From a candidate division FCPU426 bacterium (GTDB lineage Bacteria > Oederibacteriota > Muellerivitia > Muellerivitales > Muellerivitaceae): a stretch of 64,000 bases of DNA. Position numbers and translations under genes: made by a program. The notes beneath the pieces were generated by a model. That model saw only the letters and a program-made list of their open reading frames with translations. It did not search any database and was not told the DNA's origin. Below, in pieces: positions 11,854-22,970 of this stretch; the first letter of the stretch is position 1; every line of letters begins with the position of its first letter. Location: positions 64,001-128,000 of the forward strand of contig CAWCKJ010000006.1 of assembly GCA_963796105.1 (NCBI GenBank), read 5' to 3'.

Positions 11854-12105
11854 AAATTAAGAACTTCTAAAATAAATTCTTGAATCCACCTCAAAACCCC
11901 AGAACTCTTCACGCAGAAGTGAATTGTCGTTGACAGTAAAAAAGAATATTTTTTAATGAACTTCCTTGGCTGTGTCTCTGTGACTCTGTGGTAAAAAGAG
12001 GTTTTGTCAGTGTCCCTTAATCTTTATTTTTATAAGTGGGTTGATTCTCCTGGATTACCTATCGTAAGTTTTCATTGAGAATTAGGTATCGATACGGGGG
12101 AGAAT

Positions 12106-12576
12106 ATGGAGAAAGCTACATTCGGAGCGGGGTGTTTTTGGGGCGTGGAGGAATTGTTCCGAAATTTAAAGGGCGTGTCATCTACGGCGGTTGGGTATGA
12201 AGGAGGCAAATTGAACCGGCCAACCTACCAGGCGGTTTGCACGGACCAAACCGGCCACGCTGAAGTCGTTGCAATCCAATTTGATCCTTCGGTTATTTCT
12301 TACGAGAGCCTTTTGGACGCCTTTTGGGAATGCCACGACCCAACCACCCTCAACCGCCAGGGGCCCGATTACGGCACCCAGTACAGGTCGGTCATCTTTT
12401 TCCATACCCCCGCTCAGGAAAAAACCGCCAAGGATTCCATGAAAAAATCAAGCCAATCCGGCAGGTTCAGGAACCCCATTGTTACCCAAATTGTTCCCGC
12501 CGAAACCTTTTGGCGGGCGGAAGAATACCACCAGCAATACCTGTTCAAACGGGGCTTGGGTAACTGCCATATCTAG
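12106..12576 (+). CDS. msrA: Peptide-methionine (S)-S-oxide reductase
   Basis: [18 protein letters not shown] and AEEYHQQY motifs. Confidence 0.97.
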
Positions 12577-12751
12577 CAGACTGCTGAAAAAATAAAAATA
12601 GGCCACAAAGCAGCCTGCGACCCCAAAGATTCCGCAGGCTTTGGTTTGAGGGTACATAGGGGATTTACCCTATGAGCGCTGTTGAATCGTGGGGTTTCCG
12701 CAAATGTCGTCAGCTGAAAAAGTCCGTTTGGGGGACTTTTTCAGCACCCTG
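12577..12751. mobile_element. 175-bp non-autonomous MITE-like element
   Basis: Terminal IRs cagactgctgaaaaa / tttttcagcaccctg, flanked by CTAG at 12573-12576 and 12752-12755; no ORF. Confidence 0.7.
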
Positions 12752-12874
12752 CTAGTTCCTGATAATGAAGATTAATTAGGTTGCATGCAAGAAGGGAATC
12801 TAAGCGTTCTGGACTGTAACACTTCGGTTGAAGCGTTACGGGAGACTTTGAATATTATTAATGAATAAAACAAA

Positions 12875-13889
12875 GGGGTCAGGCCATCATTCATCATTTT
12901 ACAAATAGTGTGAGTTGTTTACAATGCCCTAATGCCAAGGCCTAAACGGATCCATTACGAAGGGGCGGTTTACCATGTAACCTCGCGCGGTAATGAACGG
13001 CGAAAGATTGTTATGAATGACGCCGACCGCTGGATGTTTATTCGGTTATTGGGGGAAATGGTTGAAGAGAATGGTGTGTTATGTCACGCTTGGGTATTGA
13101 TGGATAATCATTACCATTTGATGCTGGAAACCCCAAGCGCGAATTTATCAGCAGCCATGAAACATTTAAACGCCCAATACACACAAAAATTCAATAAAAA
13201 GCATTATCGGAACGGGCATTTGTTCCAGGGGCGGTATAAGGCCATTATTGTGGAGAAAGACAGTTATTTAAAGGAATTAAGCCGGTATGTGGTATTGAAT
13301 CCGGTAAGGGCCCGGATGGTAAAACACCCCAAAGACTGGAAGTGGAGTAATTACCGGGCGACGGCGGGATTTGATAGGGCGGAAAAATGGCTGGAAGTGG
13401 ACTGGTTATTAGGGCAGTTTGGAAAGGAAAGAAAAAAGGCGCAAAAATCATACAGGACTTTTGTGGAAGAGGGGATGGGGAAGAAAGAAAAGCCTTGGGA
13501 TGATTTGTATTCGCGTATATACCTGGGTGGTAAGGAGTTTTTGGACAAGGTTCACGAAGTAGGGCAACGTCACAAACATTTGGATGTACCGAAATATCAG
13601 AAAAACGTGGTAAAGCAAGATCCGAAAGAAGTGCTGGAGAAAGTAGGAAGAATGTATGGTGAAAAAGCGGAGGAAATATTGAGGGCAGGCAAAAGGGAGT
13701 CGGAAGCCCGGGATATGGCGATATATTTATTAAAGAGAAAATCAGGAATGAGTTCCAAGGCGATAGGAATAAAGATGGGGGTGGGGGAAAGCGCGGTGGG
13801 AAACCGATTGATGAAGATCAAAAAAAGGTTGGCGGAAGACGAAAAGTTTGCACGAAAGCTGATAAAGTGATGAATGATGGCCTGACCCC
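12875..13889 (+). mobile_element. TIR-bounded element carrying a Y1/HUH (RAYT-like) transposase
   Basis: Perfect 22-bp inverted repeats ggggtcaggccatcattcatca at 12875-12896 and 13868-13889 enclose the gene. Confidence 0.8.
12932..13870 (+). CDS. REP-associated-type tyrosine (Y1, HUH) transposase with C-terminal HTH
   Basis: YHVTSRGN, LMDNHYHL (HUH), GHLFQGRYKA, YVVLNPVRA, WKWSNY; DnaA-C-like HTH tail. Confidence 0.9.
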   Translation: MPRPKRIHYEGAVYHVTSRGNERRKIVMNDADRWMFIRLLGEMVEENGVLCHAWVLMDNHYHLMLETPSANLSAAMKHLNAQYTQKFNKKHYRNGHLFQGRYKAIIVEKDSYLKELSRYVVLNPVRARMVKHPKDWKWSNYRATAGFDRAEKWLEVDWLLGQFGKERKKAQKSYRTFVEEGMGKKEKPWDDLYSRIYLGGKEFLDKVHEVGQRHKHLDVPKYQKNVVKQDPKEVLEKVGRMYGEKAEEILRAGKRESEARDMAIYLLKRKSGMSSKAIGIKMGVGESAVGNRLMKIKKRLAEDEKFARKLIK

Positions 13890-14360
13890 ATTGTTCATCT
13901 TCCGAAGGATTTTGAAAAAGCCAAGGTGGTGGGTGAAGTTCCTGAAACAGACCGGTTTGATTTAACCATTGGCCTTTCTATACGGAATAAAAAAGCTTTT
14001 GATCAGTATGATCAAGAACTGCACAGTATAAAAAACCCTCGAAAGCGCCATTATCTTACCCGTGATCAAGAAGAAAAGATGTTTTATCCGACCAAAAACA
14101 ATTATCAGGCCTTAATTGATTTATGCAAGTCGCACGGGCTGAAAATTAGAGGCACAGATCCTGATCGTCTTTTGTTGGCTGTAAATGGCACGATTAAAGA
14201 TATTCAAAAAATATTTCACATAAAGTTTCATAAATACCAGATGCCCAATGGTTTTGAATTCCGTTCGCCCGATCAGGAGCCATCAATCGATTTGGACGTA
14301 CCGATAGAACGTATAGATAGTCTCGGCGATTATTTTAGGGCAGTACCGGCTGAGAGGTAA
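13890..14360 (+). pseudogene. Stand-alone peptidase S53 (kumamolisin-type) pro/activation domain, 5' end abutting the transposase TIR
   Basis: Frame open from the TIR (IVHLPKDFEKAKVVGEVP...LTIGLSIRN...RHYLT...HGLKI...LLLAVNGTIKDIQKIF); no catalytic domain follows. Confidence 0.6.
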
Positions 14361-14385
14361 GAGCTTTTTTAACTGAGATTATTTG

Positions 14386-14422
14386 CCTGCACATGGCTGT
14401 CGCAAAAAGGATGGTGTGCAAC
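14386..14422. repeat. 37-bp direct repeat, copy 1 of 4
   Basis: CCTGCACATGGCTGTCGCAAAAAGGATGGTGTGCAAC. Confidence 0.97.
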
Positions 14423-14465
14423 GTCGTTAGCTGAAAAAGTCTGATTTGGAAACTTTTTCAACTAG
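14423..14465. mobile_element. Right-end remnant of the MITE at 12577-12751
   Basis: gtcgttagctgaaaaagtc...actttttca..ctag aligns with 12706-12755. Confidence 0.6.
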
Positions 14466-14494
14466 TTCGATTTAGCAGTAGGGAGGCGTATTAA

Positions 14495-14647
14495 GTGAAA
14501 TTTCTAAAAACGTTTAAACCAAACTGTTCATTCCAAAATGTCCTCAATGCTTTGCCCCTTTCCAGGAATAATAATCTTCAGGCATCACTTTCAATTACCG
14601 TTTTTACGCCCAGCACTCATTTGAAATTCTTTGGAGGCATTTCGTGA
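14495..14647 (+). CDS. Leader peptide 1 (50 aa, MKFLKTFKPNCSF...FGGIS)
   Basis: gggagg RBS; GTG start; stop overlaps the next start (GTGA); homologous to leaders 2 and 3. Confidence 0.7.
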   Translation: MKFLKTFKPNCSFQNVLNALPLSRNNNLQASLSITVFTPSTHLKFFGGIS

Positions 14648-15756
14648 AAAAAGAAAATAGAACCATTTTTTCAATGAGGTGGTTAAGAAAAGAGTTTGTT
14701 AGTGGGCTAACAACTATATTTCTTTTTAGTCTCGTTTTATCAATTGGTACTAAGACAGTTAATGCTCAAGACCATCCGGATCAAATAAAACATCCTTCTT
14801 TTTTTCAACCAGATGAAGAAGCAAAAAAAGTTTTTAATGATCGAATATATTTAGCCCAAAAGAAAGGCGAAAAAAGAAAGATAGTGGTATACGGCGAAGT
14901 CCATTTTGAAGAAAAATCTAAGGTTGAAACTAGCAAACTTTATTTTACCGATGGTCAAGGGAAAATCCTTAATACTTTTAATATTTACCCTAATTCTAAT
15001 GTTCATAACTGCCAAAGTGATATTCGCTTTTCGAAAAAATATCTTTCCATTCGAAGGACTTTTCGAGACGGAAAAAAAGAGGTGCTGGATGGTTTTGTGT
15101 TTAACAATGAAGGAACTGTTTTGTGGCATGTCCCAAAAGAAGATGTGTCCGGTTATATTTTCCCTTGTGATAAAACTGAAAGCGTGTTGACGATTGATGA
15201 TTGGAAAGGTCATTTAATAAATTACGATATTAATGGTGTCGAAAAGAATAATAAATACTTTTCCGATCAAAACGATGAAAAGTTTCCCGATTTGGCAACC
15301 CCAGATTCAGAGAATGCGGCAATTTGGGGAGGTTGCGCTTCTTCCGATGACGGCAATTATGTTGCCGTCGCTAGGTCGTCCAACGATATAAGGAATTTTC
15401 AAAATGAACTCACTTTGATTAATTCAACCGGGAAGGTTATATTCCAAAATAAAGATAATCAGTCACTTTTTAATTCTGTTTTGAAGGTTTATGAAGATCC
15501 TAATCTTATTGTTCTGTGGGGGAAAATTAAAGGAATGCCTTCGATGTTTAAACATGATGTAGGACATCATGAATATTTTGGATTTGATTTTACCGGAAAG
15601 TTGCTTTGGAAAGTTGATGGTGAAAAATATTATATCGATCCAACATTGATGAATTCCCGAATAGTTAGCCTGAGTGAAATTGACAACACAAATGGGAAAA
15701 CGCATTTACTGCAAAGTAATCTAACACTTAATGTCTCAACAGGGGAAATTAAGTAA
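14644..15756 (+). CDS. Exported protein, probable beta-propeller
   Basis: Signal peptide (VNA-Q); repeated G-x-x-L-W / DG..VAV blade-like motifs; AT-rich. Confidence 0.7.
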   Translation: MKKENRTIFSMRWLRKEFVSGLTTIFLFSLVLSIGTKTVNAQDHPDQIKHPSFFQPDEEAKKVFNDRIYLAQKKGEKRKIVVYGEVHFEEKSKVETSKLYFTDGQGKILNTFNIYPNSNVHNCQSDIRFSKKYLSIRRTFRDGKKEVLDGFVFNNEGTVLWHVPKEDVSGYIFPCDKTESVLTIDDWKGHLINYDINGVEKNNKYFSDQNDEKFPDLATPDSENAAIWGGCASSDDGNYVAVARSSNDIRNFQNELTLINSTGKVIFQNKDNQSLFNSVLKVYEDPNLIVLWGKIKGMPSMFKHDVGHHEYFGFDFTGKLLWKVDGEKYYIDPTLMNSRIVSLSEIDNTNGKTHLLQSNLTLNVSTGEIK

Positions 15757-15792
15757 TAAGTCCTTTTATAAATATTTTAGAAAGTTGATTAT

Positions 15793-16011
15793 ATGCTAAA
15801 AAAATACTTTTTTATTTTAGGTTTTTTTCTTTTTCCTTTTCTGGGTCATTCCCAAGAAATAACTTTTAGTTGGCCATTCCTAGATCCAGACGGAAATTTT
15901 CCATCTAAAGTTCAGCATATAATACGTCAAACCGTAGGTGCTTATCGTGGACCCCGAAATACTGCTACACCAGCAATAAGTGGGTCCCGTTTTCACCGAG
16001 GAGTGGATTTA
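15793..16011 (+). pseudogene. N-terminal fragment of a secreted M23-type metallopeptidase, cut at repeat 2
   Basis: Signal peptide, FSWPF, GAYR and FHRGVDL (HxxxD zinc motif); the second HxH motif is absent. Confidence 0.7.
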
Positions 16012-16048
16012 CCTGCACATGGCTGTCGCAAAAAGGATGGTGTGCAAC
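16012..16048. repeat. 37-bp direct repeat, copy 2 of 4
   Basis: Identical to copy 1. Confidence 0.97.
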
Positions 16049-16089
16049 CTCTCCTCCACCCACCAGTCAGTAGCAGGGAGGTGTATTAA

Positions 16090-16254
16090 ATGAAATTTCA
16101 CAAATCTTTTGAATCAAACTGTTCTTTCTGTTCGGCCTTTCAAGCTTTGCCCCTTTCCTGGAAAAATCATCGTTTAAACTTTTCCACATTTCCTAATTTG
16201 AAGACTTTGCCGAATACTGTTTACCATCAACCAACTTTCGGAGGAATTGAATGA
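16090..16254 (+). CDS. Leader peptide 2 (54 aa, MKFHKSFESNCSF...FGGIE)
   Basis: gggagg RBS; ATGA overlap with the gene at 16251. Confidence 0.7.
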   Translation: MKFHKSFESNCSFCSAFQALPLSWKNHRLNFSTFPNLKTLPNTVYHQPTFGGIE

Positions 16255-17222
16255 AAAAGGAAATCAAAAGCTATTTAGCCATTTTGCTTGCAACTTCGAT
16301 TTTAGGCTTTTTGTGTGCATCCTCCTTTTGTCAAGCTGCTACCGAATCAAAAATCTTTACTAAAAAAGAAATTTTATTTCTGAACTGGGGGAAGTCAAAT
16401 AACGAAGTCGGTTTGACAAAGAAAACGTTAAAGCCGTATCAAGGAGGCGGCATAAATTATTTTTATCCAACAGATTTTGGAATCGACGGAGAAGAAAATT
16501 TGTACATTCTTGATGCGCCTAACAACAAGATAAAAGTATTTTCTAAAAACGGTGATTTTATCAAGTCGTTTGACAATGAGTTGCCAAACATAAAAATGCT
16601 TGTGGGACAAGATGGAGAAGTTTATTTGCCGATCTACGCAGATAGTTTCAAAAAGCATTGGGTTTTACGGATCAAGAAAAATGGTGAGCAAATAAAGTAC
16701 ACAGGGGAATTGGGCGAGTATGTCGAAGGAAATACGATGTATCGCTGGGACGGGAAACCCGTAATGGTTTTTGAGGATAAAAAGAATAACGATTTTTCCA
16801 ATGAGCCTCCTCATTTATATCGGGAAAAGGATGTAACGCAAGATAATTTGCGCGAAAAGAAAATTTATATTAAAACAAAACAAATAAATAAATTTTTAAA
16901 CTTGAATGATAATCCGGATTTAGAACTGCCAATAGTCCAAAAGAAAAACATGTGGACTCACGGCCCCGAAGTCATCGGTGTAGATAAAAAGGGTAATATT
17001 TATCTTCACTACAACTTTGAATGGGCTCGTGCTTTGGTTGAGGAGGATTTGTATGTTTATTCCTCTCAAGGAAAATTAATTGGAAATATCCAGTTTTATG
17101 ACAAGCCCGCCACCCGAGAACATTACCGGGAAGATTTTATAAAAATTAGCAATGAAGGCAATGTTTATCAAATGTTAATCTTGGAAGATGGGGTTCATCT
17201 TTTCGAATGGCAAAAACAGTAA
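16251..17222 (+). CDS. Exported NHL-repeat / beta-propeller protein
   Basis: Signal peptide; YPTDFGIDGEENLYILDAPNNKIKVFSKNG NHL-like repeat; IGVDKKGNIY. Confidence 0.8.
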   Translation: MKKEIKSYLAILLATSILGFLCASSFCQAATESKIFTKKEILFLNWGKSNNEVGLTKKTLKPYQGGGINYFYPTDFGIDGEENLYILDAPNNKIKVFSKNGDFIKSFDNELPNIKMLVGQDGEVYLPIYADSFKKHWVLRIKKNGEQIKYTGELGEYVEGNTMYRWDGKPVMVFEDKKNNDFSNEPPHLYREKDVTQDNLREKKIYIKTKQINKFLNLNDNPDLELPIVQKKNMWTHGPEVIGVDKKGNIYLHYNFEWARALVEEDLYVYSSQGKLIGNIQFYDKPATREHYREDFIKISNEGNVYQMLILEDGVHLFEWQKQ

Positions 17223-17319
17223 AAAATATAAGCCGGTTTTTATTATTCACCACCATTTTTTTGGCACAAACTTGCCTACTTGTTCCACAAGCAAAAGCGG
17301 GGCCGTCTTCACTGCCGGT
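17207..17319 (+). pseudogene. 5' stub of a secreted-protein gene, cut at repeat 3
   Basis: MAKTVKNISRFLLFTTIFLAQTCLLVPQAKA-GPSSLP: complete Sec signal peptide with AxA site, overlapping the upstream stop. Confidence 0.6.
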
Positions 17320-17356
17320 CCTGCACATGGCTGTCGCAAAAAGGATGGTGTGCAAC
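17320..17356. repeat. 37-bp direct repeat, copy 3 of 4
   Basis: Identical to copy 1. Confidence 0.97.
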
Positions 17357-17464
17357 AAAATTAAAGTATTCTCATAATTTTTCTGGCAATTTTTTTAAAA
17401 CGTCTATTAACAGGTATTCAACCCTCTCCTCCACCCACCAGATAGCAGTAGGGAGGCATATTAA

Positions 17465-17584
17465 GTGAAATTTCTAAAAACGTTTAAATCAAAATGTTCA
17501 TTCCTATCAGCTCTTTCTGCTAATTTCAAACACGAAAGTTTAATCGAAAATCGTAATTCATTAAACATCGGAGGTTTGGAATGA
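17465..17584 (+). CDS. Leader peptide 3 (39 aa, MKFLKTFKSKCSF...IGGLE)
   Basis: gggagg RBS; GTG start; ATGA overlap with the ORF at 17581. Confidence 0.7.
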   Translation: MKFLKTFKSKCSFLSALSANFKHESLIENRNSLNIGGLE

Positions 17585-18657
17585 ATTCCTCTTCGTATAT
17601 ATCGAATATCCATAGGAGGTTATGCATGATAAAAGAAATTAAAAACGGAAATGAACTGAAATGGTTAACAAAAGAATTCAAAGGTGTACTTATTTCTGTT
17701 TATATAATTATTTCACCTTCTTTAACAAATTATCTATGGGGTGATACTTACACCCCAAAGGTGAAATATGAAAAAAAATATAAATTTGATTATAAATTCC
17801 ACATGGAAAAAGAAAATCCATCGTGTGTTTACATAATTGATTCAGGCAACGTTTACGAGCTTCATTACAAAAACCCTTATGTAGAGGTTTTCAATAACAA
17901 GGGAAACCCTTTACGGACTTTCAAATGCAACTGGAAGGGTGGCGAACCCAACGTTACTTATAGGCTATTGATGGATGATAAAGGGAATATGCTTGTCTAT
18001 ACACCATGGACCAACAACGCAAATAATTTCATCTTGGATAAAGATGGAAATTTATTAAAGACCTTTTTTTGTGGAGTAACTTGGCCTTGGAAAATCGGAT
18101 TTGAAAATGGTGTCGTTTATGACAAGGCAAATGGAATTGTATTAGGTGCTATTGACGAGAAACGGGGCGAAATTAAGCAAAAGATATTTTTTAAAGATAT
18201 TGACGATTTATATAACCCTCATGATTTACAGGAACCCCATCGTGGAGTAAAAATAAAAAAGCATATTAGACAAATAAAACTGCCGAAATATCTTCAACAA
18301 ATTGACGGTTCATATGTGGAAATCGAAAAAATCAAAGAAATGCCATTTGGGTTATATACAACTCCACCCAAAGGATTTGATGGAAAATTCAAATATGAAG
18401 AAATTATCGATATGGATGAGCAAGGTAACATTTATGCGAGATATGAAACGCCTCCGATTAGGATCGGCGATAAATACACAGGAAAAGTGAATCAAGCTTT
18501 CAAAATTTTCGTTTTTAATCCCAACTTTAAATTGTTGACTGTCCTAGATGCGAAAGATATTGGTTTTCCAGATCTTCCGACAAGAAATTTGTATGAATTA
18601 AAACCCGGACCAGAGCCGGGAGATATCAAGGTATATAAATGGGAAAAGATGCACTGA
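17581..18657 (+). CDS. Probable exported beta-propeller-like protein
   Basis: Blade-like motifs IDSGNVY, MDDKGNML, DMDEQGNIY; N-terminal hydrophobic stretch; alternative start at 17626. Confidence 0.7.
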   Translation: MNSSSYISNIHRRLCMIKEIKNGNELKWLTKEFKGVLISVYIIISPSLTNYLWGDTYTPKVKYEKKYKFDYKFHMEKENPSCVYIIDSGNVYELHYKNPYVEVFNNKGNPLRTFKCNWKGGEPNVTYRLLMDDKGNMLVYTPWTNNANNFILDKDGNLLKTFFCGVTWPWKIGFENGVVYDKANGIVLGAIDEKRGEIKQKIFFKDIDDLYNPHDLQEPHRGVKIKKHIRQIKLPKYLQQIDGSYVEIEKIKEMPFGLYTTPPKGFDGKFKYEEIIDMDEQGNIYARYETPPIRIGDKYTGKVNQAFKIFVFNPNFKLLTVLDAKDIGFPDLPTRNLYELKPGPEPGDIKVYKWEKMH

Positions 18658-18661
18658 GAAA

Positions 18662-18698
18662 CCTGCACATGGCTGTCGCAAAAAGGATGGTGTGCAAC
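18662..18698. repeat. 37-bp direct repeat, copy 4 of 4
   Basis: Identical to copy 1. Confidence 0.97.
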
Positions 18699-18781
18699 AG
18701 GAACAGTTTTTGGAGTGAGTTGCAAAATTGTAGTGTTTACCGGCGGAAATGCGGGTTTCCGGTGCATGTTCCTAGGCTCAA

Positions 18782-18900
18782 TAAAATCGAGGTTTTAACA
18801 GTCACCCCAAGTGTTAACACCAATAAAATTGCGGTGTTAACGGTCGCCCATAAGTGTTAACACCTGAAAAATTGCGGTGTTAACAGCAGGTGTTAACACC
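18782..18900. repeat. Cluster of six TTAAC / (G)TGTTAACA(C) palindromic sites
   Basis: TTAAC cores at 18795, 18814, 18837, 18857, 18880 and 18893; perfect GGTGTTAACACC at 18889-18900. Confidence 0.8.
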
Positions 18901-18948
18901 CTAATGTCGCCGGAAATGTGGGCGGGTTATCCTACCTGCCGACGGAAA

Positions 18949-19660
18949 CTCGAGTATCTTGGAACCTTGGAACTTTGGAACTGGCCTGGAACCACCGAAA
19001 TTCGAGAATCTTGAAACCTTGGAACTCTGGAACTCGCCTGGAACCACCGAAATTCGAGTATCTTGGAACCTTGGAACTTTGGAACTGGCCTGGAACCACC
19101 GAAGTTCGAGAATCTTGGAACCTTGGAACTCTGGAACGCGCCTGGAACCACCGAATTTCGAGAATCTTGGAACCTTGGAACTCTGGAACTCGCCTGGAAC
19201 CACGACACCCGGGAAACCTGGAACTCTGGAACTCCTGGAACCGGCCTGGAACCACGACACCCGGGAATCCTGGAACTCTGGAACTCCTGGAACCGGCCTG
19301 GAACCACGACACCCGGGAAACCTGGAACTCTGGAACTCCTGGAACCGGCCTGGAACCATGACACCCGGGAAACCTGGAACTCTGGAACTCCTGGAACCGG
19401 CCTGGAACCACGACACCCGGGAATCCTGGAACTCTGGAACTTCTGGAACCGGCCTGGAACCACGACACCCGGGAATCCTGGAACTCTGGAACTCCTGGAA
19501 CCGGCCTGGAACCACGACACCCGGGAATCCTGGAACTCTGGAACTTCTGGAACCGGCCTGGAACCACGACACCCGGGAAACCTGGAACTCTGGAACTCCT
19601 GGAACCGGCCTGGAACCACGACACCCGGGAAACCTGGAACTCTGGAAATCCTGGAACTGG
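18949..19660. repeat. 52-bp tandem satellite, ~13.6 copies, two subtypes, rich in TGGAAC
   Basis: Units at 18951, 19003, 19055, 19107, 19159 (type A), then 19201, 19253 onward (type B); resumes briefly at 22432 after IS21. Confidence 0.95.
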
Positions 19661-19823
19661 TGTCATTGGCCGCGAGCTTTAACCCCCTAGCTGGCCAAGC
19701 ACTTTGACCCCACCTCTGGCCAGTCACTTTGACCCCCTGTCTGGCCACCGACTTTGACCCCCTTGCCAAGGGCCTCTCTAACCGTCATTCCTTTCTTTTT
19801 TCACTTCATGTGAGGAGAACGGC

Positions 19824-22173: not shown

Positions 22174-22587
22174 GAAACCCATCGTTCGATGCTGTCTTAT
22201 TCGTGCAATCTTGCGCCTATTGGTTACGGGATTTGCGCGGGACTTCGTATCATCCAATGTTGGGGAAGCAAAACGCATCTTGTGAAAGGAGTTTGATGGG
22301 TCTAAATTAATCTAAAAAAGAGGCCCCGCAAGGCAGGGGTCGAAGTCCCCGAAACAGGCACCCCTCGAAGTGCCCAAAAGAGGGGGGGCAAAGTAGGCGG
22401 CCAGGGGGGTTAAAGTGGCTGGCCAGTGACAACTGGCCTGGAACCGTAGAAAACAGGGGATATTGGCTGACTCAAGAACAAATGAAGGGGTTTTATATGG
22501 CTCAAGGATTATCTGAAGTTTTGGAATGGTTGGGTCAGGTAGAGGTTATTAAAAACCAATTACAAAAGGATCCTCAATGCCCCAGGG

Positions 22588-22854
22588 CAAGCCGAGATAA
22601 CCTGGGAACAGCAGGACTTAAGCCGGGAACAAGCCGAGATAACCCGGGAACAGCAGGACTTAAGCCGGGAACAGGCTGAGATAATCCGGGAACAGCAGGA
22701 CTTAAGCCGGGAACAGGCGGGGATAACCTGGGAACAGGAAGACTTAAGCCAGGAACAGGCTGAGATAACCCGGGAATAGCTGGACTTAAGCCGGGAACAA
22801 GCCGAGATAACCCGGGAACAGCAGGACTTAAGCCGGGAACAGGCTGAGATAACC
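22588..22854. repeat. 42-bp (2x21) tandem repeat, ~6.4 copies
   Basis: caagccgagataacccgggaacagcaggacttaagccgggaa unit; one frame reads (EQAEITREQQDLSR)n with a TAG at 22777. Confidence 0.9.
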
Positions 22855-22970
22855 ACGGGAACTACTGGGGTGAATCGGCCTGATAAGCACTTTTGTTTTG
22901 GTTTATTCCCCGAATTGTTGGGTGTAGGCTTATAGGGCGATTAAGGATTTTTGAATAAAAGGATAAAGAT

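What the first reader, a model, noticed from the sequence alone, without database searches (positions are those of the whole stretch)
14473..17584. Unannotated homologous leader peptides translationally coupled to every cargo gene
Seen: each spacer has a (tagcagta)GGGAGG-N8-start followed by a 39-54 aa ORF: MKFLKTFKPNCSF...FGGIS (14495-14647), MKFHKSFESNCSF...FGGIE (16090-16254) and MKFLKTFKSKCSF...IGGLE (17465-17584). All three stay open despite length differences, and all end in a GTGA/ATGA overlap with the cargo start. Spacers 2 and 3 also carry ctcctccacccaccag just upstream, whose CCTCC can pair with the GGAGG RBS. These ORFs fall below the 60-aa ORF-track cutoff. Inference: a portable expression module (RBS-sequestering hairpin plus coupling peptide). 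It could also be the feature by which the capture machinery picks these loci.
Basis: partly seen in the sequence, partly recalled or inferred. Interest (0 to 1): 0.72.

Follow-up and report, generated by a model that had tools for sequence, protein, structure and literature searches.

The report
Coupled leader ORF of secreted-protein operons
A short open reading frame with a strong ribosome-binding site precedes unrelated secreted-protein genes in one genus of uncultured bacteria, inside and outside a CRISPR-like array; it is likely translated to pass ribosomes to the next gene, an ordinary kind of control element, and is probably not the array's capture signal.

Summary
The three ORFs, their ribosome-binding sites and stop/start overlaps are as described. 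Five more copies lie outside any array: two in this genome, three in a same-genus genome with no repeat found. All 7 full-length copies stay open for 39-54 codons, while neutral simulation expects 7.5-10 stops (P<=0.002; 0.03-0.10 on the best-aligned block). The amino acids are barely constrained (pN/pS 0.81, control gene 0.33). So translation likely matters, not the peptide. Exact stop/start overlap holds in 5 of 7 copies, and spacer 3's true cargo start may lie 45 nt downstream. The anti-SD helix is 5 invariant pairs with no covariation. The capture-signal idea fails: 3 of 63 inter-repeat segments carry the leader, at 41-108 nt from the repeat. Best reading: a genus-specific upstream ORF heading operons of a secreted beta-propeller/FN3 gene plus a giant predicted wall-hydrolase gene, carried into the array as a passenger. 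This is a new member of a known kind. Unexplained: why 3 of 3 spacers here start at such operon heads.

The parts
14386..14422 (+). 37-bp CRISPR-type repeat 1 (context)
   Evidence: exact copy; 14 copies in genome; one lies directly behind cas1 and a cas2-sized ORF at G000:C5
14423..14468 (+). half of a dispersed REP-like repeat in place of the anti-SD region of spacer 1
   Evidence: 80-87% matches at 9 other places in the genome
14481..14486 (+). leader 1 Shine-Dalgarno GGGAGG
14495..14647 (+). leader ORF 1, 50 codons, GTGA overlap with cargo 1
14644..15756 (+). cargo 1 (gene A), 370 aa, predicted signal peptide, weak beta-propeller-like lead
   Evidence: lead only; homologues in 5 other family genomes
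15793..16011 (+). 5' end of gene B (predicted M23-peptidase-like secreted protein), cut by repeat 2 at codon 73
   Evidence: 51% identity to the gene behind a cargo-1 homologue in G010, which has a weak M23 match, E 0.027, below cut-off
16012..16048 (+). 37-bp repeat 2
16053..16064 (+). C-rich anti-SD motif CCTCCACCCACC
16076..16081 (+). leader 2 Shine-Dalgarno GGGAGG
16090..16254 (+). leader ORF 2, 54 codons, ATGA overlap with cargo 2
16251..17222 (+). cargo 2 (gene A), 323 aa, NHL-type beta-propeller, predicted signal peptide
   Evidence: homologues in 8 of 30 other family genomes
17207..17319 (+). 5' end of a likely gene B (signal-peptide-like), cut by repeat 3; in relatives gene B carries a SpoIID domain
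   Evidence: same 16-nt overlap with gene A as in G016, G021, G030; SpoIID matches there
17320..17356 (+). 37-bp repeat 3
17362..17367 (+). retained -10-like hexamer TAAAGT of the native promoter block (-35 cut off by the repeat)
   Evidence: alignment with promoter-bearing copies; read by eye, not flagged
17428..17439 (+). C-rich anti-SD motif
17451..17456 (+). leader 3 Shine-Dalgarno GGGAGG
17465..17584 (+). leader ORF 3, 39 codons, ATGA overlap with ATG 17581; the same frame continues to a second ATGA at 17626-17629
17581..18657 (+). cargo 3 (gene A), 358 aa from 17581 or 343 aa from 17626, weak NHL-like match
18662..18698 (+). 37-bp repeat 4

Best explanation
The element is a genus-specific upstream ORF at the head of operons for secreted proteins, open in all seven full-length copies, and it is likely translated for the sake of the ribosome's passage rather than for its peptide: ribosomes would start at the strong GGGAGG site, likely damped by a short anti-SD helix, cover the C-rich leader RNA and re-initiate at the adjacent cargo start. 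Shown: conserved SD and start, open frame, weak amino-acid constraint, stop at or within 24 nt of the cargo start, a promoter-like block about 100 nt upstream in the four full-length non-array copies, and a C>G bias. Inferred: translation itself, hand-over of ribosomes, and protection from Rho. The three copies in the array are passengers on fragments cut from such operons; each fragment has lost at least the -35 box.
For: Eight copies: 3 in the window, 2 elsewhere in G000, 3 in G001. 7 of 7 full-length copies are open for 39-54 codons; in their first 150 nt the leader frame has 1 stop against 30 and 27 in the other two frames. Distinct stop columns over 39 codons: 0 against 9 and 9. Neutral simulation: 7.5-10.4 stops expected, P(all open) 0-0.002 in 1500 runs for each of 4 roots. 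SD-to-start identity is 0.92, against 0.52-0.57 for the leader body; one copy swaps GTG for ATG. pN/pS is 0.81 (bootstrap 0.60-1.11) against 0.33 for a paralogous cargo pair of similar DNA identity. G at codon position 1 is 0.13 against 0.29 in low-GC genes. Exact RTGA overlap in 5 of 7. C exceeds G in every leader (26-36 vs 11-21) and in the five native-type UTRs (21-29 vs 4-8), while the cargo genes have C<G. Two Rho genes pass the family cut-off. Precedent: four coupled uORFs shown by mutation in S. meliloti, one before a type I secretion operon (PMC13285730, section 16 read).
Against: On the gap-free first 22 codons alone the simulation gives P 0.03-0.10 (0.06-0.16 without spacer 3), and over 24 codons the stop-column test gives 0.09. 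The frame was first chosen because it is open in three copies. The overlap is inexact in 2 of 7: 17-nt overlap in c3a, 24-nt gap in g1c. Leader 3 may stop early. Cargo start regions are not unusually structured (z -1.6 to +1.8), and in a synthetic system an exposed second RBS allowed de novo initiation and prevented effective coupling (PMC11602170, passages), so dependence may be partial. The same promoter block precedes another secreted-protein gene with no leader (C3:512769). Cargo homologues in other genera show no match to the leader (10 loci, 5). The anti-SD helix shows no covariation and is missing in spacer 1.
Confidence: 0.55

Rival explanations
1. The leader is translated but is only a constitutive booster, like a natural bicistronic design, with no regulation; the anti-SD match is incidental or binds something else.
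For: No sensing motif is conserved in the peptide; the helix has only 5 pairs around a 19-nt loop, with pairing probability from 0 to 0.99 by copy and window; spacer 1 lacks it; the 12-mer is conserved beyond the 5 paired bases.
Against: CCTCC is invariant in 6 of 6 copies that keep the region, and the leader SD is predicted mostly paired in those copies (mean unpaired 0-0.17). The motif plus SD occurs only at these loci in 99 genomes.
Confidence: 0.2
2. The region is a conserved non-coding 5' UTR; the open frame is inherited by chance, and the overlap merely reflects GGAGG-N6-ATGAAA cargo starts.
For: pN/pS is not distinguishable from 1; codon-position composition is unlike genes; any ATGA start supplies a TGA; conservative tests give P 0.03-0.16.
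Against: 0 of 18 distinct stop columns fall in this frame; full simulation P<=0.002; the best-conserved block is an SD, a fixed 8-nt spacer and a start codon; four full-length copies were found by DNA similarity, blind to frame.
Confidence: 0.12
3. The peptide itself acts, as a small protein or as a ribosome-arrest sensor of the TnaC/SpeFL/CruR kind.
For: M-K-F-x-K-x-F is invariant; signal-peptide regions give a similar pN/pS of 0.70, so a loosely constrained peptide is not excluded.
Against: Only 6 invariant columns, all within the first 12 residues, where DNA is about 90% conserved over codons 2-8; no conserved C-terminal motif; no Pfam match for 3 leaders, no NCBIfam match for 2, no usable Atlas hit; 2 hits among 1.84 billion proteins, both tandem-repeat proteins.
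Confidence: 0.08
4. The leader is the feature that Cas1-Cas2 or a helper recognises when it captures kilobase spacers.
For: 3 of 3 spacers in this array begin within 108 nt of a leader, which random capture from a 4.5-Mb donor would not give (rough 7e-5 per spacer).
Against: 0 of the other 60 segments carry the leader or any coupled 25-70-codon uORF in their first 300 nt. Distances to the repeat are 72, 41 and 108 nt, and spacer 1 begins in a different repeat element. G001 has 3 leaders but no repeat and no match to this Cas1 (93% complete). Arrays in G016 and G030 border related cargo genes without this leader.
Confidence: 0.05

Closest known systems
Translationally coupled uORFs with ATGA overlap in Sinorhizobium meliloti (PMC13285730; abstract and section 16 read)
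   Same: Own SD and start, short ORF, ATGA stop/start overlap with the main gene; one case heads a secretion operon. The paper reports this overlap in nearly 10% of its predicted uORFs.
   Different: Here one homologous leader precedes several unrelated cargo families and has an upstream anti-SD motif; coupling is untested here.
Plasmid leader peptides Tap (R1), RepY (IncI1) and RepR (IncI2) coupled to repA/repZ (PMC8053102; passages read)
   Same: A leader whose translation is the control point and which overlaps the downstream start.
   Different: Those leaders control replication genes and are blocked by an antisense RNA or a ProQ/FinO protein; no antisense RNA was shown here, and the cargo RBS is not predicted to be buried.
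uORF-dependent Rho attenuators tnaC, speFL, cruR, mgtL, corL (PMC12360218; passages read)
   Same: Translated leader, C-rich RNA, Rho present in the genome.
   Different: No conserved arrest or ligand motif in this peptide; no termination site is known; the stop abuts the next start.
Synthetic coupling elements (synTCE, PMC11602170, passages read; bicistronic design recalled from memory)
   Same: Upstream cistron with an internal second SD and overlapping stop/start, reusable before different genes.
   Different: Natural; about 50 codons long; the second SD is not in a strong hairpin.
Kilobase-spacer Cas1-Cas2 arrays
   Same: The window's four repeats belong to such a system, and genes are cut at the repeats.
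   Different: The leader is not part of that system; it belongs to the captured DNA.

Membership tests
Translationally coupled uORF / leader cistron | Own SD and start codon at a workable spacing | tested here: met
   GGGAGG-N8-RTG in 7 of 7 full-length copies
Translationally coupled uORF / leader cistron | Reading frame kept open under selection | tested here: met
   P<=0.002 on 39 codons, 0.03-0.10 on the gap-free 22 codons
Translationally coupled uORF / leader cistron | Stop overlaps or lies close to the downstream start | tested here: met
   exact RTGA in 5 of 7, 17-nt overlap in 1, 24-nt gap in 1; spacer 3 start ambiguous
Translationally coupled uORF / leader cistron | Downstream RBS buried unless the leader is translated | tested here: inconclusive
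   local folds no more stable than shuffles, z -1.6 to +1.8; SD region unpaired 0.24-0.58
Translationally coupled uORF / leader cistron | Downstream expression falls when the leader start is mutated | not testable with these tools
   needs reporter fusions
Antisense-controlled leader (Tap/RepY type) | Antisense RNA complementary to the leader RBS region | tested here: inconclusive
   the exact complement of the 12-mer occurs at one other place in the genome; a cis-antisense transcript was not testable
uORF-dependent Rho attenuator | Rho present and C>G leader RNA | tested here: met
   two Rho genes over cut-off; C/G counts
uORF-dependent Rho attenuator | Conserved arrest or ligand-sensing residues in the peptide | tested here: not met
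   no invariant residue after position 12 in 7 copies
uORF-dependent Rho attenuator | Conditional premature termination | not testable with these tools
   needs Term-seq with and without a Rho inhibitor
Small-protein gene | Purifying selection on amino acids | tested here: not met
   pN/pS 0.81 (0.60-1.11) against 0.33 for the control gene
Known cis-regulatory RNA (Rfam) | Match to a curated model | tested here: not met
   window 12000-19500: 4 matches, all far below gathering score
Spacer-acquisition motif (PAM-like capture signal) | Present at most spacer ends at a fixed distance | tested here: not met
   3 of 63 segments; 72, 41 and 108 nt from the repeat

The most novel reading that the evidence does not exclude
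The kilobase-spacer Cas1-Cas2 array here works as a library of protective genes: each spacer keeps an intact first gene (a candidate immunity or partner protein of a secreted wall hydrolase) with its plug-in translation module and drops the hydrolase gene behind it. The shared leader, freed from its promoter and in one copy from its anti-SD, would make such captured genes expressible at once, and selection for that would explain why 3 of 3 spacers start at a leader.
Probability: 0.15. Interest if true: 0.72.

Novelty: new member of a known kind. Interest (0 to 1): 0.3.

Why it matters
As a leader it adds one more natural coupled uORF, unusual only in being reused before several unrelated secreted-protein genes, and so far found in two genomes of one genus. 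It matters more as a clue to the array: it shows that these spacers are heads of kin operons, that the first gene is intact while the hydrolase-like gene behind is cut, and that the leader is not the capture signal. If the first genes protect against the hydrolases, the array would be an acquired-immunity gene library written by Cas1-Cas2.

Tried and rejected
Collection scans: the 25-nt leader pattern gave 0 matches in metagenome contigs and genome contigs; the peptide alignment gave 474 pattern hits and 0 confirmed. These tools may leave out this genome and close kin. DNA search of 31 family genomes: strong hits only in G000 and G001; six short 20-32-nt hits in four other genomes were set aside as chance. 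Protein-profile search: two weak hits at E 0.04-0.05 set aside. Sequencing runs: none was listed, which is no evidence on expression. A NusG-paralogue antitermination (ops-like) reading was considered and dropped: one NusG found. An antisense gene is unlikely: no reverse frame is open across copies. The promoter and terminator scan of window 12500-19000 was at chance level. A complex prediction of gene A with the SpoIID domain of gene B was not available, so binding is untested. Literature searches listed no paper on this leader family or on kilobase-spacer Cas1-Cas2 arrays; for most papers only listings and abstract starts were seen, and the library lacks most subscription journals. Supplements were not read. 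A paper search on a guessed phylum name was not used.
Full report
Observation. The three ORFs exist at the stated coordinates, with GGGAGG 8 nt before the start and a GTGA/ATGA overlap with the next long ORF. They lie in the three spacers between four identical 37-bp repeats (14386, 16012, 17320, 18662). The anti-SD motif is present in spacers 2 and 3; in spacer 1 half of a dispersed repeat element takes its place. Two cautions apply. The similar C-termini are the cargo's own GGAGG-N6-RTGA read in the leader frame. In spacer 3, the start that aligns with the other cargo starts is ATG 17626, with its own GGAGG; both protein forms are in databases.

Context. The repeat has 14 copies in this genome. 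One lies directly behind cas1 and a cas2-sized ORF on contig C5, and 6 of 60 relatives carry it, with mostly kilobase-sized gaps. Earlier unreviewed notes of this scan describe such arrays in other genomes.

The leader is independent of the array. Homologous copies lie at G000:C3:664685 (c3a, full) and C3:194580 (c3b, 5' end cut by an IS200-like element, with a 1-nt deletion before the cargo). Three more lie in G001, the only other genome of the genus, where neither the repeat nor this Cas1 was found (93% complete). The four full-length non-array copies share a promoter-like block, TTGA(C/A)-N17-TAGAGT read by eye, about 100 nt upstream. The array copies have lost at least its -35 box. The anti-SD plus SD motif was found in 2 of 99 phylum genomes, only at these loci. 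Cargo homologues in other genera, and one in G001, show no match to the leader.

Is it translated? All 7 full-length copies are open for 39-54 codons. In their first 150 nt the leader frame holds 1 stop, the other two frames 30 and 27. Over 39 codons, 0 of 18 distinct stop-bearing columns are in the leader frame (7e-4 if columns are independent). Neutral simulation on the fitted tree expects 7.5-10.4 stops and leaves all seven open in 0-0.2% of runs. On the gap-free first 22 codons alone P is 0.03-0.10, and 0.06-0.16 without spacer 3, so the result leans on the less certain part of the alignment. Identity is highest at SD-to-start (0.92) and codons 2-8 (0.90) and falls to 0.52-0.57 in the body. 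pN/pS is 0.81 (0.60-1.11), against 0.33 for a paralogous cargo pair and 0.70 for that pair's signal-peptide region. Codon-position composition is unlike genes. No family or credible homologue was found. I infer selection for an open frame, not for a protein.

Coupling and hairpin. The exact overlap is kept in 5 of 7 copies; c3a overlaps by 17 nt and g1c stops 24 nt short. Pairwise gap lengths inside the leader were multiples of three in only 23 of 63 cases (alignment-dependent), so strict phase conservation is not shown. Cargo start regions fold no better than shuffles, so the cargo could probably initiate on its own; PMC11602170 (passages) saw this for an exposed second RBS. The CCUCC:GGAGG helix is the consensus fold in 6 of 6 copies that keep the region, with no covariation; its pairing probability ranges from 0 to 0.99, though the SD is mostly paired in some register. 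Leader and native UTR are C-rich and G-poor, unlike the cargo, and the genome has two Rho genes, so leader translation could also shield the RNA from Rho (precedents in PMC12360218, passages). This step is inference.

What the leader heads. The cargo genes fall into several families that share at most an N-terminal stretch: NHL-type propellers, a weakly propeller-like family (lead only) and FN3-like proteins. In G016, G021 and G030 the cargo-2 family precedes secreted genes with a SpoIID domain, up to 1633 aa. In G010 the cargo-1 family precedes a gene 51% identical to the fragment at 15793, with a weak M23 match. Spacers 1 and 2 are thus operon heads cut inside gene B. That gene A is an immunity protein is a guess from gene order; binding is untested.

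Capture signal. I extracted 63 inter-repeat segments: 7 from this genome and 56 from 20 fetched stretches of six relatives, not all their repeats. Only the three window spacers carry the leader or any coupled 25-70-codon uORF in the first 300 nt. The distances to the repeat differ (72, 41, 108 nt). Still, 3 of 3 in one array is not random (rough 7e-5 per spacer). Selection for an intact, translatable first gene from a same-genus donor is my preferred explanation; a local capture hot spot, for example near the IS200-like element that often flanks these loci, is not excluded.

Verdict. The feature is real. It works like, and meets the sequence-level criteria of, a translationally coupled uORF (PMC13285730, section 16; PMC8053102, passages); dependence of the cargo on it is untested. 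It is a new member of a known kind, found in two genomes of one genus. The capture-signal reading is not supported. Interest 0.3; the novel case (array as a library of protective genes with plug-in leaders) has probability 0.15 and interest 0.72 if true.

Noticed in passing
G000:C5:44443-45874; G025:C15, C16, C3: The Cas1 beside the 37-bp repeat is 100% identical in protein to three copies in G025, a different genus, which suggests recent transfer of the cas1-cas2 module.
   Followed up: partly
window 14386-18698: This array has no cas gene beside it, and its first repeat lacks the flank seen before the repeats at C5:45838 and C3:497669, so it looks like a detached piece.
   Followed up: partly
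L067:7737-10400 (G016:C66); L084 (G030:C113): In other genera too, repeats cut a SpoIID gene B or sit directly before a cargo-1 homologue, so these operon heads recur at array junctions without this leader.
   Followed up: partly
L066 (G021:C46): Tandem A, truncated B, A, full B (1633 aa, SpoIID-Kelch) without any 37-bp repeat; the junction carries the end of the IS200-like element. It resembles orphan modules of polymorphic loci.
   Followed up: partly
window 12869-13895: IS200-like (Y1) transposase with 33-bp terminal inverted repeats, in several near-identical copies; copies lie next to leader loci in G000 and G001 and one interrupts a repeat at C4:1471836.
   Followed up: no
window 13926-14360: Isolated pro-kumamolisin activation domain (Pfam E 1e-18) between the IS and repeat 1, without the peptidase domain.
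   Followed up: no
spacers listed: Most long ORFs in the spacers appear to lie on the same strand as the repeat orientation; seen by eye, not counted.
   Followed up: no
G000:C8:117361 and C4:477600: Two full-length Rho genes, both over the family cut-off.
   Followed up: no
window 18942-19764 and 22546-22881: 52-bp and 21-bp tandem repeats flank an IS21-family istA/istB pair; similar 52-bp arrays occur at many places in the genome.
   Followed up: no
G000:C3:512769-512637: The same promoter-like block precedes a 546-aa secreted-protein gene with no leader ORF.
   Followed up: partly
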